15,993 nt of DNA from a virus (taxonomy: Duplodnaviria > Heunggongvirae > Uroviricota > Caudoviricetes), in IMG/VR virus record IMGVR_UViG_637000264_000001; one strand, written 5' to 3'. The notes beneath the pieces were generated by a model. The model was not told where the DNA came from, ran no database searches, and saw only the letters and a list, made by a program, of their open reading frames with translations. The first letter of the stretch is position 1. Each line of letters opens with the position of its first letter. The translations under genes were made by a program, and so were the position numbers. This document shows positions 1 through 15,993 of this stretch, in pieces.

Positions 1-45
1 GTGATAGTCTTAATACTAGTTTTTAGACTTGTCATTGGAGAACAG

Positions 46-411
46 ATTATTGATGTCTTAGGGCCGGAGAAACGCAGACGGCGTACCACACAGGAAAAGA
101 TCGCAATTGTTCAGCAGAGCTTTGAACCGGGGATGACGGTCTCCCTCGTTGCCCGGCAACATGGTGTAGCAGCCAGCCAGTTATTTCTCTGGCGTAAGCA
201 ATACCAGGAAGGAAGTCTTACTGCTGTGGCCGCCGGAGAACAGGTTGTTCCTGCCTCTGAACTTGCTGCCGCCATGAAGCAGATTAAAGAACTCCAGCGC
301 CTGCTCGGCAAGAAAACGATGGAAAATGAACTCCTCAAAGAAGCCGTTGAATATGGACGGGCAAAAAAGTGGATAGCGCACGCGCCCTTATTGCCCGGGG
401 ATGGGGAGTAA
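46..411 (+). CDS. insC: IS2 transposase OrfA (InsC); expected initiator position reads ATT instead of ATG
   Basis: Translation ...[40 protein letters not shown]... ending PLLPGDGE matches InsC; codon 46..48 is att where InsC (MIDVLGPEK...) needs ATG. The ORF-track start at position 1 is a window-edge artefact. Confidence 0.8.
363..369 (+). promoter_or_regulatory. A6G slippery heptamer (aaaaaag), candidate programmed -1 frameshift site joining insC to insD
   Basis: gcaaaaaagtgg at the insC/insD overlap; IS3-family elements make an OrfAB fusion by -1 slippage on A6G motifs (established knowledge). Confidence 0.7.
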
Positions 412-1274
412 GCTTAGTCAGCCGTTGTCTCCGGGTGTCGCGTGCGCAGTTGCACGTCATTCTCAGACGAACCGATGACTGGATGGATGGCCGCCGCAGT
501 CGTCACACTGATGATACGGATGTGCTTCTCCGTATACACCATGTTATCGGAGAGCTGCCCACGTATGGTTATCGTCGGGTATGGGCGCTGCTTCGCAGAC
601 AGGCAGAACTTGATGGTATGCCTGCGATCAATGCCAAACGTGTTTACCGGATCATGCGCCAGAATGCGCTGTTGCTTGAGCGAAAACCTGCTGTACCGCC
701 ATCGAAACGGGCACATACAGGCAGAGTAGCCGTGAAAGAAAGCAATCAGCGATGGTGCTCTGACGGGTTCGAGTTCTGCTGTGATAACGGAGAGAGACTG
801 CGTGTCACGTTCGCGCTGGACTGCTGTGATCGTGAGGCACTGCACTGGGCGGGGACTACCGGCGGCTTCAACAGTGAAACAGTACAGGACGTCATGCTGG
901 GAGCGGTGGAACGCCGCTTCGGCAACGATCTTCCGTCGTCTCCAGTGGAGTGGCTGACGGATAATGGTTCATGCTACCGGGCTAATGAAACACGCCAGTT
1001 CGCCCGGATGTTGGGACTTGAACCGAAGAACACGGCGGTGCGGAGTCCGGAGAGTAACGGAATAGCAGAGAGCTTCGTGAAAACGATAAAGCGTGACTAC
1101 ATCAGTATCATGCCCAAACCAGACGGGTTAACGGCAGCAAAGAACCTTGCAGAGGCGTTCGAGCATTATAACGAATGGCATCCGCATAGTGCGCTGGGTT
1201 ATCGCTCGCCACGGGAATATCTGCGGCAGCGGGCTTGTAATGGGTTAAGTGATAACAGATGTCTGGAAATATAG
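369..1274 (+). CDS. insD: IS2 transposase OrfB (InsD), DDE integrase-type catalytic domain
   Basis: 301-aa [33 protein letters not shown]...[24 protein letters not shown], overlapping insC in the -1 frame; matches recalled InsD over its whole length. Confidence 0.92.
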
Positions 1275-1333
1275 GGGCAAATCCAGTATAAGCCATTATC
1301 AAACCCACCCGTAGATAGGCTTTGTAATGGCTA

Positions 1334-1623
1334 CTTCTTCAGAAATGATTCGATGAATTCACGTCGAGGATGACGATAGTTCAGAATATCTTCTGGCATC
1401 CTCATAAAGCGGTTGTTGCCGTCTTTGGCAGTAACAAAACAGCTGTGAACTCCGCAGACATCCGTTTTGATCGTGTCGCTATACTCAAAAAGCAACTGAG
1501 CCATCTTCTCTTGCCATTCTGGAGGCATAGCCTCCATGAATACTCGCGGCATCACGCAGAACGACGCATGCGTAAGACCAAACCACAGTTGCAGGTCTTT
1601 ACGATATTCTTCATCCATCGTCT
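1334..1623 (-). pseudogene. Orphan 3' fragment (about 97 codons) of an unidentified gene, trapped between the IS2 right end and the IS911 end
   Basis: Minus-strand frame open from the IS911 boundary to stop at 1331..1333 (...EEYRKDLQLWFGLTHASFCVMPRVFMEAMPPEWQEKMAQLLFEYSDTIKTDVCGVHSCFVTAKDGNNRFMRMPEDILNYRHPRREFIESFLKK). The first 26 codons of track ORF 1331..1702 are IS911 sequence. Family not recognised. Confidence 0.5.
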
Positions 1624-1631
1624 TGAAGTGG

Positions 1632-2801
<1,170 letters not shown>

Positions 2802-2873
2802 TGGAGCACCTGTGTTGTTCTGAGGTGAGCATATCACCTCTGTTCAGGTGGCCAAATTCAGTGTGCCACTTCA

Positions 2874-3914
2874 CCTTTCTTTCCGAACCTTGTTGATCAC
2901 CTTCTGGTTAAGCATCACACGGCTGATGGCGTTGAAGATGGCATTTCAATCTGCTACTTCAAGCCATACTCGCAAGGCCGTGCTCGCTGGCAGGGTGACA
3001 CAATCCACGGCGTGTGGTTTGACGAAGAGCCACCATACAGCATTTATGGCGAAGGTCTTACCCGTACCAACAAATACGGGCAATTCTCAATTCTGACGTT
3101 TACCCCGCTGATGGGGATGTCTGACGTTGTTACCAAGTTCCTGAAGAACCCCAGCAAGTCGCAGAAAGTGGTCAACATGACCATCTATGACGCTGAGCAC
3201 TATACCGACGAGCAGAAAGAGCAAATCATCGCATCATATCCCGAGCATGAGAGAGAGGCGCGTGCTCGCGGTATTCCTACGATGGGTAGTGGTCGAATCT
3301 TCCAGATACCGGAAGAGACGATTAAGTGTCAGCCGTTCGAGTGTCCTGATCACTTCTACGTAATTGGCGGGATGGATTTCGGATGGGATCACCCACAGGC
3401 GCAAGTTCAGCTTTGGTGGGATAAGGAGGCAGACACAATCTACGTTTCACGCGTGTGGAAGGCGAAAGAAAAAACAGCCGTTCAGGCGTGGGGAGCCGTT
3501 AAATCATGGGCGCATAAAGTGCCAACCGCATGGCCTCATGATGGAAACCAGCACGAGAAGGGCGGCGGTGAGCAGCTCAAAGGGCAGTATGCAGACGCTG
3601 GATTTATGATGTTGCAGGAGCATGCGACATGGCCTGATGGCGGTAACGCTGTTGAGCCAGGCATCACTGAATTGCGCGACATGATGCTCGATGGTCGCTT
3701 CAAAGTATTCAATACCTGTGAGCCATTCTTTGAGGAGTTCCGCCTCTATCACCGTGATGAAAACGGGAAAATCGTCAAGCTTAACGACGACGTGCTATCC
3801 GCCGTTCGCTATGCATACATGATGCGCCGCTTCGCAAAAATGATGCGCGACATCAAAAAACCAAAAGAGAAAAAGATACCAGCCCCAATCAGGCCCATCG
3901 CACGGAGAACTTAA
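2874..3914 (+). pseudogene. Terminase large subunit, 5'-truncated by IS911 (about 347 C-terminal codons remain: Walker B onward plus nuclease domain)
   Basis: Frame open from the IS911 boundary: ...GDTIHGVWFDEEPPYSIYGEG... (Walker-B-like hhhDEE), later HFYVIGGMDFGWDHP and KLNDDVLSAVRYAYMMRR typical of terminase nuclease domains; stop 3912..3914 abuts the portal ATG. No Walker A segment in the window. Confidence 0.8.
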
Positions 3915-10471: not shown

Positions 10472-11319
10472 TGGCTGATTCGAATCTCAATGTGCCGGTA
10501 ATCATCCAAGCTACGCGGCTCGATACATCAGTCCTTCCACGCAATATCTTCTCGCAGTCGTATCTGCTTTACGTTATCGCACAGGGCACTGATGTTGGTA
10601 ACGTGGCTAACAAAGCCAACGAGGCCGGACAGGGCGCTTATGATGCACAGGTCAGGAACGATGAGCAGGATGTGATTCTCGCTGACCATGAGCAGCGAAT
10701 TTCTGCTGCGGAAGCAACGCTTGTTAATCATGAGGAGCGAATCAGACAGGCAGAATCAACTCTTCAGGACCATGAAACACGAATAGCTCAGAATGAAAGC
10801 GATATTTCGTCGCTTGACACAAGAGTTCAGTCGCTGGAGTCGCAGGTTTCAGACCATGAAACGCGCATCGATGCTCTGGAGTATGCAACCACACGCAAGA
10901 AGTCAGAGGTTGTTTACTCTGGTGTATCTGTAACCATCCCGACAGCGCCGACCAACCTTGTTAGCCTGCTGAAAACGCTCACACCGTCATCCGGCTCGTT
11001 GGCACCATTCTTCGACACCGTTAACAACAAGATGGTTGTGTTCAACGAGAACAAAACCCTGCTCTTCAAGTTGTCGATTGTCGGCACGTGGCCCAGCGGA
11101 ACCGCCAACAGGTCAATGCAGCTAACCTTTTCCGGCTCTGTTCCTGACACACTGGTCAGCAGTCGTAATGCGGCGACAACAACCGACAACATCCTGTTAG
11201 CTACGTTCTTCAGCGTGGATAAAGACGGCTTTCTTGCCACAAATGGCAGTACGTTAACCATTCAGTCGAATGGTGCGGCGTTTACTGCCACAACCATCAA
11301 GATAATCGCGGAGCAGTGA
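10471..11319 (+). CDS. Tail needle protein (P22 gp26 family) with C-terminal knob domain (Sf6/HK620 type, 282 aa)
   Basis: N-terminus [43 protein letters not shown] matches gp26; central heptad-repeat coiled coil; C-terminal ~140 aa non-helical Ser/Thr-rich extension. Confidence 0.85.
10684..10880 (+). repeat. Tandem ~42-nt (14-codon) periodic repeats encoding DHExRI-type coiled-coil units within the tail needle gene
   Basis: gaccatgagcagcgaat (10684), aatcatgaggagcgaat (10726), gaccatgaaacacgaat (10768), gaccatgaaacgcgcat (10851); protein [67 protein letters not shown]. Confidence 0.7.
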
Positions 11320-11774
11320 TGATTACATTCAAACCAACGCGAAACATCGACCTGATAGAAGCAGTCGGAAATCACCCTGACATTATCGCCGGGAGCAACA
11401 ACGGTGATGGATACGACTACAAACCTGAATGCCGTTACTTTGAGGTGAACGTGCACGGTCAGTTTGGCGGCATTGTTTACTATCAGGAGATTCAGCCGCT
11501 GACATTAGATTGCCACGCCATGTACCTGCCAGAGATTCGCGGCTTCAGCAAGGAAATTGGGCTGGCGTTCTGGCGATACATTCTGACTAACACCACCGTT
11601 CAGTGCGTAACATCGTTCGCTGCACGCAAATTCCGACACGGTCAGATGTACTGCGCAATGATTGGCCTTAAGCGTGTAGGAACCATCAAGAAATACTTCA
11701 AAGGCGTGGATGACGTGACTTTTTACAGCGCCACACGCGAAGAACTAATCGACTTCCTGAATCACGGGAGATAG
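11319..11774 (+). CDS. P22 gp14-like virion assembly protein (151 aa)
   Basis: [23 protein letters not shown]...YDYKPECRYFEVNVHGQFGGIVYY...; ATG at 11319 overlaps the tail needle stop (gtgatga); the track start at 11316 is GTG one codon upstream. Confidence 0.8.
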   Translation: MITFKPTRNIDLIEAVGNHPDIIAGSNNGDGYDYKPECRYFEVNVHGQFGGIVYYQEIQPLTLDCHAMYLPEIRGFSKEIGLAFWRYILTNTTVQCVTSFAARKFRHGQMYCAMIGLKRVGTIKKYFKGVDDVTFYSATREELIDFLNHGR

Positions 11775-11776
11775 CC

Positions 11777-12469
11777 ATGTTATATGCATTTAAGCTGGGC
11801 AGAAAACTGCGCGGCGAGGAACCTTATTGCCCTGAAAAAGGCGGGAAAGGTGGCAGTTCTGATAAAAGCGCAAAGTATGCAGCAGAAGCCCAGAAGTATG
11901 CTGCAGACCTGCAAAATCAGCAGTGGCAGACGATCATGAAAAACCTTGCTCCGTTCACGCCTCTTGCGGAGCAGTATGTTAACCAGCTTCAGAACCTTTC
12001 CAGTTTAGAAGGTCAGGGGCAGGCACTTAATCAGTATTACAACTCTAAGCAGTATAAAGACCTTGCAGGGCAGGCGCGTTACCAGAGTCTTGCTGCTGCG
12101 GAGGCGACGGGTGGACTTGGTTCGACAGCCACAAGCAATCAACTGGCTACGATCGCGCCGACACTCGGTCAGTCTTGGTTATCAAATCAGATGAGCAATT
12201 ACAACAATCTGGCAAACGTTGGGCTTGGTGCGCTGCAAGGTCAGGCAAACGCCGGGCAGACGTACGCCAACAACATGAGCAGCATTGCACAGCAAAGCGC
12301 AGCTCTTGCCGCTGCTAATGCCAATAAACCATCAAGTCTTCAGACTGCAATTAGCGGTGGCACGTCTGGTGCGATTGCCGGTGCAGGTCTTGCCAGCCTT
12401 TTGGGAACATCAACGCCTTGGGGCGCTGGTATTGGTGCTGGTATCGGATTGCTTGGCTCGTTGTTTTAA
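11777..12469 (+). CDS. Ejection (injection) protein, P22 gp7-like (230 aa)
   Basis: Position after gp14-like; Gln/Asn/Ala-rich with Gly/Ala-rich hydrophobic C-terminus (GAIAGAGLASLLGTSTPWGAGIGAGIGLLGSLF). Confidence 0.75.
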   Translation: MLYAFKLGRKLRGEEPYCPEKGGKGGSSDKSAKYAAEAQKYAADLQNQQWQTIMKNLAPFTPLAEQYVNQLQNLSSLEGQGQALNQYYNSKQYKDLAGQARYQSLAAAEATGGLGSTATSNQLATIAPTLGQSWLSNQMSNYNNLANVGLGALQGQANAGQTYANNMSSIAQQSAALAAANANKPSSLQTAISGGTSGAIAGAGLASLLGTSTPWGAGIGAGIGLLGSLF

Positions 12470-12478
12470 GGGGGAATC

Positions 12479-13810
12479 ATGGCTACTTGGCAAGGAACAA
12501 ACGGCGGATTGTTGGCTGGTATCGGCGGCGTCAACTCAAACGCTCCGAGCGTAAATGACATCGGCAATACGCTTCAGCTTATCAGGCAGAACAATGATAT
12601 TGAGCGTTCAGGCGCTAACAATGTTGGGCTGACTGCTTTGCAAGGTCTTTCAGGTATTGCGGGTGTTTTTCAGCAGGAAAAGCAGGCTCAGCGGCAGAAA
12701 GAATTTCAGCAGGCGTACGCTAATGCTTATGCGTCTGGTGATCGCGGTGCTTTGCGTCAGTTGGCTACTCAATATCCAGACCAGATTGAATCCGTTCGTA
12801 AAGGCATGGGATTCATTGATGAAGAGCAGCGTAATTCTATCGGCACCTTAGCGGCTGGCGCACGCCTTGCGTCATCGTCTCCAGAAGCAATGCAATCATG
12901 GCTGCAAAACAACGCCGGTGAGTTAGCTCGTGTTGGCGTTAATCCTCATGACGTCGCTCAGATGTACCAACAGAACCCGCGGCAGTTCGGCGAATTTGTC
13001 GATCACCTGGGGATGAACAGTCTCGGGCCCGAAAAATACTTTGACCTACAGGATAAAATGCAGGGTCGCCAGGTTACCATGCGCGGTCAGGATCTGGATT
13101 CGCAAACCGCCGCTCGGAATCAGGCAATCACAATGCGCGGACAAGATATCCAGGCGAATTTAGGTCAGCAGCGCATTAATCTGGACGCAGAAACAAACCG
13201 CATTAACAACGAAAATAAGCGCCTTGACCGGATGCTATCAGCAGAAACTAACGACCTGAAGCGCCAGGAAATACAGAGCCGCATAGCAGCCAACAACCAG
13301 CAGTTGCAGCAGAAGCAGCAAGCGCTAAATGATGGCTACAAAGACGGCATCAACACCCTCACAACCAGCATGTTCACTCTGAACGATATCGTTAGTTCTC
13401 CTTCACTTAAGAGCATTACAGGCTTACGTGGAGTAATCCCCAACGTTCCAGGCTCACAGGCTGCAGACACTCAGGCACGACTTGATACCTTTAAATCACA
13501 AGCATACCTGACAGCGGTTCAGGCCATGCGAGGCATGGGCGCACTTTCTGATGCCGAGGGCAAAAAGCTCGACCAGGCTGTTGGTTCGCTGCAGAACTCG
13601 CAGAGCGAGGAGTCCTTTCGTCGCAACGCTGGCGTCATCCTGAACACGCTCAACCAGAAGCGTAATGAGGCGGTTGGTAAGTACGTTCAGCAAAACGGTA
13701 TCAAGCGAGTGGAAGCGCCTCAGGCTTCTATAGATTACCTGAAGCAGCACCCCGAGCTGTCAATCGACTTCATTAATCGCTACGGATATCTTCCATCTTT
13801 GGGGCAGTAA
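12479..13810 (+). CDS. Ejection protein, P22 gp20-like (443 aa)
   Basis: Synteny; Gln-rich predicted coiled-coil protein with internal repeat VTMRGQDLD / ITMRGQDIQ; RBS aaggggg upstream. Confidence 0.75.
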   Translation: MATWQGTNGGLLAGIGGVNSNAPSVNDIGNTLQLIRQNNDIERSGANNVGLTALQGLSGIAGVFQQEKQAQRQKEFQQAYANAYASGDRGALRQLATQYPDQIESVRKGMGFIDEEQRNSIGTLAAGARLASSSPEAMQSWLQNNAGELARVGVNPHDVAQMYQQNPRQFGEFVDHLGMNSLGPEKYFDLQDKMQGRQVTMRGQDLDSQTAARNQAITMRGQDIQANLGQQRINLDAETNRINNENKRLDRMLSAETNDLKRQEIQSRIAANNQQLQQKQQALNDGYKDGINTLTTSMFTLNDIVSSPSLKSITGLRGVIPNVPGSQAADTQARLDTFKSQAYLTAVQAMRGMGALSDAEGKKLDQAVGSLQNSQSEESFRRNAGVILNTLNQKRNEAVGKYVQQNGIKRVEAPQASIDYLKQHPELSIDFINRYGYLPSLGQ

Positions 13811-15612: not shown

Positions 15613-15993
15613 TGAACCGCCCCGGGAATCCTGGAGACTAAACTTCCTGAGAAAGAGGTAAACAGGATGACTAAAAATACTCGTTTTTCCCCCGAAGTCC
15701 GTCAACGGGCAGTCCGTATGGTTCTGGAAAGTCAGGGCGAATATGACTCACAATGGGCGACAATTTGTTCCATTGCCCCAAAGATTGGCTGTACGCCGGA
15801 GACTCTGCGTGTCTGGGGTCGCCAGCATGAGCGGGATACCGGGGGCGGTGATGGAGGGCTCACCACCGCTGAACGTCAGCGTCTGAAAGAGCTGGAGCGT
15901 GAAAATCGTGAACTGCGCCGCAGTAACGATATCCTTCGCCAGGCTTCCGCTTATTTTGCGAAGGCGGAGTTCGACCGCCTCTGGAAAAAATGA
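15613..15993 (+). mobile_element. IS629 / IS1203-type element (IS3 family), left end and orfA; continues beyond the window
   Basis: Left terminus tgaaccgccccgggaatcctggagactaaacttcctgagaaagaggtaaacagg followed by orfA; matches the recalled IS629/IS1203 left end. Confidence 0.85.
15667..15993 (+). CDS. IS629/IS1203 OrfA (108 aa)
   Basis: [108 protein letters not shown]; ends in ggaaaaaatga, the expected orfA/orfB overlap. Confidence 0.88.

What the first reader, a model, noticed from the sequence alone, without database searches (positions are those of the whole stretch)
1286..1623. Orphan gene remnant between IS2 and IS911 with non-cognate flanks: footprint of IS-mediated rearrangement
The 338 bp between the IS2 right end and the IS911 end carries only the last ~97 codons of a minus-strand gene I cannot place. 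Across IS911 the flank is a plus-strand terminase fragment, so the two sides of IS911 do not belong to one interrupted gene. This implies deletion or inversion between IS copies rather than simple insertion. The 5' terminase half, small terminase and lysis genes expected upstream are absent from the window.
Basis: partly seen in the sequence, partly recalled or inferred. Interest (0 to 1): 0.45.

Follow-up and report, generated by a model that had tools for sequence, protein, structure and literature searches.

The report
IS911 deletion scar in Shigella prophage
The 338 bases hold a complete small phage gene, not a fragment, left beside a truncated terminase gene when a Shigella flexneri prophage remnant lost one of two IS911 copies and its lysis genes; this is ordinary IS-driven genome decay.

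Summary
The coordinates are right. IS2 ends at 1285, IS911 is 1624-2873, and a P22-like large-terminase 3' fragment starts at 2874. IS911 has no target-site duplication (TCT left, CCT right).

The "remnant" is wrong. 1331-1618 (minus strand) is a complete 95-codon gene of a conserved, uncharacterised phage family. Homologs of 94-105 aa in many Enterobacterales start at the same Met. In intact phages it lies just downstream of Rz.

The window is 100% identical to S. flexneri CP182555. Sister genomes show the history:
- Strain 2457T-type genomes carry two inverted IS911 copies. One is a simple insertion (TSD TCT) between the gene's Shine-Dalgarno sequence and its ATG. The other abuts the terminase fragment. 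A 3-kb lysis cassette lies between them.
- The window equals that structure minus the first copy and the cassette (4.2 kb).
- Other strains lost the other copy instead, leaving IS911 in the opposite orientation between identical flanks.
- SNP markers confirm which copy survived in each case.

So the IS-mediated deletion is supported. It cannot be plain homologous recombination, because the two copies are inverted. The deletion ends fall exactly at the IS911 tips; the mechanism is unresolved. This is a known kind of event, of low interest.

The parts
1..1285 (+). IS2, lacking its first 46 bp because the window starts inside it. The right terminal repeat ends at 1285.
   Evidence: The full 1331-bp element is seen in L003 (6041-7371). 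Right end ...TAGGGGCAAATCCA|GTATAAGCC. Named IS2 in RefSeq annotation of near-identical DNA. Its left flank in the genome is the T6SS gene tagK. The 5-bp flanks GTGTA/GTATA do not match.
1286..1330 (-). 45-bp 3' untranslated flank of orf95, cut by IS2.
   Evidence: Continuous with phage DNA in E. coli prophages, 100% identity over 1286-1623 in 11 genomes.
1331..1618 (-). Complete 95-codon gene (orf95) of a conserved phage protein family of unknown function. In intact phages it lies just downstream of Rz/Rz1.
   Evidence: RefSeq CDS WP_000343116.1 at identical coordinates. Homolog lengths and shared N-terminus. PHROG 3527, function unknown. No Pfam, NCBIfam, PADLOC or PDB match.
1619..1623 (-). 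The last 5 bp of native upstream DNA (AGACG on the gene strand). Positions 1621-1623 (TCT) are the target triplet of the lost IS911 copy.
   Evidence: In 2457T-type genomes TCT is duplicated on both sides of IS911 copy a. The uninterrupted sequence is CATCGTCTTTACC in L005, L001 and L011.
1624..2873 (-). IS911, 1250 bp, with IRR at 1624 and IRL at 2873. orfA is intact (2499-2801), the slippery A AAA AAG is at 2544-2550, and orfB is split by an extra G at 2154. This is the surviving 'b' copy.
   Evidence: Tips and orientation. SNP markers T200/G729 match copy b of the two-copy genomes. Frameshift analysis.
2874..3914 (+). 3' two-thirds (346 codons plus stop) of a P22-like large terminase gene, truncated by IS911.
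   Evidence: Pfam Terminase_6N (partial) and Terminase_6C. 97.8% identical to IME10 gene 2. The intact sequence at the site is ...AAGAAGTCT|CCTTTCTTTCC.

Best explanation
The window is a decayed P22-like prophage remnant of Shigella flexneri, lying next to a T6SS cluster. In its recent ancestor two IS911 copies lay in inverted orientation. Copy a was a simple insertion with a TCT duplication, placed between the Shine-Dalgarno sequence and the ATG of orf95. Copy b was older and abutted the truncated large-terminase gene. A 3-kb minus-strand lysis cassette (Rz, endolysin, DUF1327, holin) lay between them. That two-copy state is preserved in 2457T-type genomes.

A single 4.2-kb deletion removed copy a and the cassette. 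It joined the inner (IRR) tip of copy b exactly to the outer flank of copy a. This left intact orf95, TCT, IS911 (b), CCT and the terminase 3' fragment, which is the window.

The deletion endpoints are the 8-bp identical IS911 tip sequences (TGAAGTGG), which are in direct orientation. The joining was therefore either transposase-initiated (a nick at the IRR tip resolved at the other copy's IRL tip) or microhomology-mediated. It was not RecA recombination between the full copies.

orf95 now lacks its ribosome-binding site and upstream transcription, and is most likely silent.

Shown: the structures, junctions and SNP markers. Inferred: the direction of change and the enzymology.
For: - The window is 100% identical to CP182555 (L003).
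- Junction sequences in 20 S. flexneri loci: type B (L006 = 2457T, L010, L023) reads L..CGTCT|IRL-a-IRR|TCTTTACC...cassette...|IRR-b-IRL|CCTTTC. The window reads L..CGTCT|IRR-IS911-IRL|CCTTTC.
- The cassette content and its colinearity with type C and with E. coli prophages.
- SNP markers: the window and L018 copies carry T200/G729 like copy b. All opposite-orientation single-copy genomes (L004, L008, L012, L015, L019, L020) carry G200/A729 like copy a.
- Flanks of types A, A' and B are identical over 3 kb, so these are recent derivatives within one clade.
- The window's junction is at exactly the nucleotide where copy a is inserted. Another IS911 at this locus (L011) sits 17-20 bp away, so the site is not an obligatory hotspot.
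- The target sites have no IR-like similarity above chance.
- The literature records IR-targeted reactions for IS911 and IR-anchored deletions for copy-out-paste-in IS elements (PMC9333248).
Against: - No direct ancestor-descendant pair was sampled, so the direction of change (B to A) rests on parsimony.
- Only two SNPs distinguish copies a and b, and IS copies can be homogenised by gene conversion.
- The enzymology is not distinguishable from the sequence: transposase-initiated and microhomology routes predict the same junction.
- The older event that placed the lysis module in inverted orientation next to the terminase fragment is not reconstructed. The terminase 5' part was not found.
Confidence: 0.8

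Rival explanations
1. In-place flip. The window's IS911 is the same copy as in the common single-copy genomes (type A'), inverted between its own terminal inverted repeats. On this view there was only one deletion event.
For: Types A and A' have identical flanks and differ only in IS911 orientation. The outer 8 bp of IRL and IRR are identical, so a flip would be seamless.
Against: The two orientations carry different SNP markers. These match, respectively, copies b and a of the two-copy genomes, each in the orientation that copy has there. A further private SNP (C1146) is shared by the two type A genomes.
Confidence: 0.07
2. Adjacent deletion from a one-copy ancestor. Copy b alone deleted the cassette by intramolecular transposition of its IRR end into the TCT site. 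Copy a of 2457T-type genomes would then be an unrelated insertion at the same site.
For: IS-adjacent deletions are classical. Other tip-anchored deletions occur at this locus: L018 at the IRL side, and the type B versus type C cassette ends.
Against: It needs two independent events at exactly the same phosphodiester in a cassette of about 3 kb. The site shows no IR-like or other recognisable hotspot signal. A third IS911 at the locus used a different site.
Confidence: 0.08
3. RecA-dependent recombination between two directly repeated IS911 copies.
For: This is the commonest route to IS-flanked deletions. It gives a single IS with the left flank of one copy and the right flank of the other, as observed.
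Against: The only two-copy state observed has the copies inverted. Recombination between them would invert the cassette, not delete it. No genome with direct copies at these two sites was found. Type C, which has a plus-oriented copy at the terminase, keeps a 9-bp IRL remnant that the window and type A' lack.
Confidence: 0.05

Closest known systems
IS-mediated genome decay and prophage erosion in Shigella (IS1, IS2, IS600, IS911, IS629 expansions)
   Same: Multiple IS elements (IS2, IS911 and an IS3-family element at 15.6 kb) delimit a prophage remnant. Flanks are non-cognate, and there are deletions and pseudogenes.
   Different: Nothing in kind. This is one specific locus, whose stepwise variants happen to be preserved in different strains.
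IS911 (IS3 family, copy-out-paste-in), including its IR-targeted and partial transposition products
   Same: 1250 bp, TG...CA tips, 27-bp imperfect IRs, orfA/orfB with an A AAA AAG slippery site, and a 3-bp TSD at the simple insertion in relatives. The deletion endpoints coincide with IR tips.
   Different: The window's copy has a frameshifted orfB and no TSD. The tip-to-flank joining between inverted copies is not, to my knowledge, a described IS911 product. The described IR targeting makes abutted IRL-IRR junctions (PMC9333248, for IS30, citing the IS911 work).
P22-like phages (Lederbergvirus) IME10, Dewey, HF4s
   Same: From the terminase 3' part to gp16 the window is colinear with IME10 and 96-98% identical over the aligned stretches. 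HF4s carries the orf95 homolog directly after Rz/Rz1.
   Different: The window lacks everything upstream of terminase codon ~172. orf95 is on the opposite strand. The lysis cassette of the Shigella relatives resembles lambda-like E. coli prophages (95.5%) rather than IME10 (75-79%).
IS30 site-specific deletion and dimer-dissolution network
   Same: Rearrangements start at the edge of an IR, and pairs of IS copies collapse to one copy.
   Different: That pathway joins IRL to IRR tip-to-tip with a 2-bp spacer and acts on directly repeated copies. Here the parental copies are inverted and no IR-IR junction remains.

Membership tests
IS911 (IS3 family) | About 1250 bp with imperfect terminal IRs starting TGAAGTGG (5'-TG...CA-3' tips) | tested here: met
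   1624-2873 is 1250 bp, with IRR TGAAGTGGTCAACAAAAACTGGCCACC and IRL TGAAGTGGCACACTGAATTTGGCCACC. Near-identical DNA is annotated IS911 in RefSeq.
IS911 (IS3 family) | orfA and overlapping orfB with an A AAA AAG -1 frameshift site, giving an intact OrfAB transposase | tested here: not met
   orfA (100 aa) and the slippery site are present. orfB is split by an extra G at window 2154, and removing it restores one continuous frame. This is a defective copy of IS911, not a different element.
IS911 (IS3 family) | 3-bp target-site duplication at a simple insertion | tested here: not met
   The window flanks are TCT and CCT. The feature is met for copy a in 2457T-type genomes, TCT/TCT.
IS2 | 1331 bp, characteristic ends, 5-bp TSD | tested here: inconclusive
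   The right end and 1285 bp are in the window. The full 1331 bp is in L003. The flanks GTGTA/GTATA differ at 1 of 5 positions, and the left flank is T6SS tagK, so the flanks are probably non-cognate.
P22-like large terminase (gp2; Terminase_6N/6C) | Complete ATPase N-domain plus nuclease C-domain | tested here: not met
   Terminase_6N matches only profile positions 73-214. The first ~171 codons of the IME10 annotation are missing. It is a pseudogene fragment.
orf95 family (PHROG 3527) | Full-length protein of about 95-105 aa with a conserved RKDLxxWFGL...PRV...NYRHP core | tested here: met
   End-to-end alignment with 17 homologs. 20 invariant columns and a shared start codon position.

The most novel reading that the evidence does not exclude
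Inverted IS911 pairs at this locus have collapsed to a single copy at least twice, and probably three or four times:
- the window type, which keeps copy b;
- the common opposite-orientation type, which keeps copy a;
- L011;
- the serotype-5 type, which has a 9-bp IRL remnant.

Each time an IRR tip is joined exactly, or within 9 bp, at the flank junction of the other copy's IRL. This could record an undescribed transposase-initiated reaction of IS911 in natural populations, in which an IRR 3'-OH replaces the IRL of a neighbouring inverted copy. The alternative is chance microhomology deletion.
Probability: 0.25. Interest if true: 0.45.

Novelty: already known. Interest (0 to 1): 0.2.

Why it matters
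It matters little beyond annotation. The work shows that an apparent gene fragment is an intact but orphaned small phage gene. It also gives a fully documented, stepwise example of how IS911 erodes a Shigella prophage.

The one point of wider interest is the set of strain variants whose deletions all end exactly at IS911 tips. The set includes both orientations of a single IS911 between identical flanks. It is natural material for testing how inverted pairs of copy-out-paste-in IS elements are resolved.

Tried and rejected
- orf95 function: there was no hit in Pfam, NCBIfam, PADLOC or PDB. The AlphaFold2 model had mean pLDDT 56, so no fold search was run.
- PHROG 3527: it aligns orf95 to profile positions 139-230 of 233, which suggested a longer parent gene. 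I rejected this because homologs across genera and in a Klebsiella phage are 94-105 aa with a common start. The 172-aa ORF call in some strains is low-complexity read-through across a stem-loop-plus-T-run and the Shine-Dalgarno sequence.
- IR-like target hotspot: the best matches were 14 of 27 against a null mean of 13.7, so this was rejected.
- Hybrid outward promoter: TTGACC in IRR plus AAGAAT gave one consensus match, no more than the shuffles gave. It would start transcription inside the ORF.
- Search for the terminase 5' part or the reciprocal junction: the junction pattern is absent from the species-representative genomes. The 5' pattern was found once, in an unrelated MAG. The N-terminal fragment proteins found came from non-Shigella prophages.
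- Papers: Loot et al. 2002 and Rousseau et al. 2008 could not be read.
- The E. coli genome collection holds no record with the window's junctions.

Full report
**What is at the coordinates**

The window begins 46 bp inside an IS2 whose right end is at 1285 (...TAGGGGCAAATCCA|GTATAAGCC). An IS911 of exactly 1250 bp occupies 1624-2873. Its IRR tip (TGAAGTGGTCAAC) is at 1624 and its IRL tip (...GTGTGCCACTTCA) is at 2873. RefSeq annotation of DNA that is at least 98.7% identical names the two elements IS2 and IS911.

From 2874 the plus strand encodes the 3' two-thirds of a P22-like large terminase. Pfam Terminase_6N matches positions 73-214 of 215, and Terminase_6C is complete. Portal, scaffold, coat and the rest of a P22-type virion module follow. 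The closest intact phages are IME10, Dewey and relatives, at 97.8% nt identity. In IME10 the sequence across the break is ...AAGAAGTCT|CCTTTCTTTCC, 513 nt into the annotated gene.

**The 'remnant' is a whole gene**

The minus-strand ORF has its ATG at 1618 and its stop at 1331-1333, giving 95 codons. The identical 338 bp occurs in 11 complete E. coli genomes, where RefSeq annotates exactly this CDS (WP_000343116.1, hypothetical protein).

A search of the large protein collection returned 43 relatives, nearly all 94-105 aa. They come from Salmonella, Enterobacter, Yersinia, Erwinia, Dryocola and Klebsiella. They align end to end, with the initiator Met in the same column and 20 invariant positions. 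A Klebsiella phage homolog is 98 aa.

PHROG 3527 (function unknown) matches at E = 1e-55, but on profile positions 139-230 of 233. Given the uniform homolog lengths, I take the long profile to be an alignment artefact rather than evidence of a longer parent gene.

In intact phages the gene lies immediately downstream of Rz/Rz1 and upstream of the terminase genes, on the same strand. This holds for P22-like HF4s and for a lambda-like E. coli prophage. Its function remains unknown. There was no Pfam, NCBIfam, PADLOC or PDB match, and the AlphaFold2 model was unusable at pLDDT 56.

What IS911 did remove is the gene's upstream region. In uninterrupted relatives the sequence reads ...stem-loop, T-run...AAAGGTAAAGACGATG. 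The window keeps only AGACG before the ATG.

**Where the window comes from and what relatives show**

An exact look-up of the portal protein and of orf95 returned about 20 Shigella flexneri chromosomal loci. The window is 100% identical to CP182555. The loci fall into structural types, which I defined by reading every IS911 tip and its flank.

- **Type B** (2457T, L006; also L010 and L023): IS2, orf95, ...CGTCT|IRL-IS911a-IRR|TCTTTACC..., a 2955-bp minus-strand cassette (Rz, endolysin, DUF1327, holin and a truncated gene), |IRR-IS911b-IRL|CCTTTC, terminase 3'. Copy a is a simple insertion with a 3-bp TCT duplication. The uninterrupted sequence is CATCGTCTTTACC. Copies a and b are inverted relative to each other.
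- **Type A** (the window, L003): ...CGTCT|IRR-IS911-IRL|CCTTTC. This equals type B minus copy a and the cassette (4204 bp).
- **Type A'** (L004, L008, L012, L015, L019, L020, L021; L016 with a group II intron): the same two flanks, but IS911 is in the opposite orientation. This equals type B minus the cassette and copy b.
- **Type C** (serotype 5 strain 8401, L005; also L007 and L009): no copy a and a longer cassette (5.2 kb). A plus-oriented IS911 is followed by a 9-bp remnant of an IRL tip (GCCACTTCA) and then CCTTTC. This shows that a minus-oriented IS911 at the terminase break is ancestral to all types.
- **L011**: a plus-oriented IS911 whose IRL lies 17-20 bp further into the cassette and whose IRR abuts CCTTTC exactly.
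- **L018**: type A orientation, with a further deletion of about 7.6 kb from the IRL tip to the gp10/gp26 boundary.

**Which copy survived**

Copies a and b of type B differ at two positions of the IS (G200/A729 versus T200/G729). Every type A' copy has the a alleles. The window and L018 have the b alleles, plus a shared private C1146. Over 3 kb of flanking phage DNA, types A, A' and B are identical (apart from single-base gaps in two assemblies), whereas type C differs by 2.6%.

The simplest reading is that types A and A' are two independent recent derivatives of a B-like chromosome, each having lost one IS911 together with the cassette. This argues against an in-place flip of one copy. It also argues against the type A orientation being an assembly error: two independent assemblies show it, with consistent markers.

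**Mechanism**

Because copies a and b are inverted, RecA recombination between them would invert the cassette, not delete it. The deletion that made the window runs from the outer (IRL) tip of copy a to the inner (IRR) tip of copy b. These two tips are direct repeats of TGAAGTGG (9 bp including the preceding T), and no base is lost or gained at the junction. The mirror-image statement holds for type A' (CCACTTCA).

Two routes give this junction:
- a transposase-made 3'-OH at the IRR tip, resolved at the other copy's IRL tip;
- slippage or end-joining on the 8-bp microhomology.

Sequence alone cannot separate them. That several independent events at this locus all end at IS911 tips favours the involvement of the IS ends, but this is inference. 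IR-targeted reactions of IS911 and IR-anchored deletions of copy-out-paste-in IS elements are on record (PMC9333248). The primary IS911 papers were not available. Neither target site resembles an IS911 IR more than chance.

**Older history and loose ends**

In all types the lysis module lies on the opposite strand to the terminase fragment, so that inversion or juxtaposition predates the events above. The cassette is closer to lambda-like E. coli prophages (95.5%) than to IME10 (75-79%). Its far end matches an island in two E. coli genomes.

The terminase 5' part and the small terminase were not found within 10 kb in any type. They were also not found in the species-representative genomes or among fragment proteins, so they were probably deleted.

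IS2 also has non-cognate flanks: T6SS tagK on the left and phage DNA on the right.

**Verdict**

The interpretation (an IS-mediated rearrangement scar) is right in substance and can now be stated precisely. The phenomenon is ordinary for Shigella, and every element is already annotated in public genomes. Interest is low. One modest curiosity remains: the recurrent tip-exact collapse of inverted IS911 pairs.

Noticed in passing
window 1624-2873, compared with L004, L008, L012, L015, L019, L020: Among S. flexneri genomes the single IS911 between orf95 and the terminase fragment occurs in both orientations between identical flanks. SNP markers show that the two forms are different parental copies (a or b).
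   Followed up: yes
window 2154 (IS911 column 720): An extra G in the run CGCCGGTG splits orfB, so this IS911 cannot make OrfAB. The same +G, together with G at column 655, is found in the IS911 of the divergent serotype-5 strain (L005). This suggests gene conversion among genomic copies.
   Followed up: partly
L005 8951-8959, L007 and L009 likewise: A 9-bp remnant of an IS911 IRL tip (GCCACTTCA) sits between a plus-oriented IS911 and the terminase fragment. It is a footprint of an earlier minus-oriented copy that was replaced.
   Followed up: partly
L018 (CP007037); corresponds to window 2874 to about 10452: A derivative of the window's arrangement has a further deletion of about 7.6 kb. It starts exactly at the IRL tip and removes the genes from terminase to gp10.
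   Followed up: partly
L011 6209-8473 and L016: A group II intron (RVT_1/GIIM ORF, about 2.27 kb) is inserted in IS911 at IS column 757 in some strains.
   Followed up: no
L011 5440-5452: An IS911 with a-type markers sits 17-20 bp away from the TCT site, with the odd junction TTGCAATGA|TGAAGTGG. Two bases (GA) do not match the uninterrupted cassette. The origin of this junction is unexplained.
   Followed up: partly
window 1-1285 and L003 6027-6045: The left flank of IS2 is the T6SS gene tagK and its right flank is phage DNA. The 5-bp flanks GTGTA/GTATA differ at one base. IS2 therefore probably also marks a deletion joint.
   Followed up: partly
window 15667-15993: An IS3-family element begins just after gp16 and truncates the prophage on the right. 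Its orfA resembles IS629/IS1203 by my recollection; RefSeq says only 'IS3 family'.
   Followed up: partly
window about 10670-11316: The C-terminal part of the tail-needle gene (Pfam Phage_tail_NK) has no nucleotide match in IME10, although the flanking genes are 96-98% identical. This is a mosaic replacement of the needle tip domain.
   Followed up: no
window 10480-13500 compared with L005, L007, L009: The serotype-5-type strains differ by 2.6% in the virion genes. The 2457T-like strains are identical to the window apart from single-base gaps in two assemblies. This is unusually deep divergence for one locus within S. flexneri.
   Followed up: no
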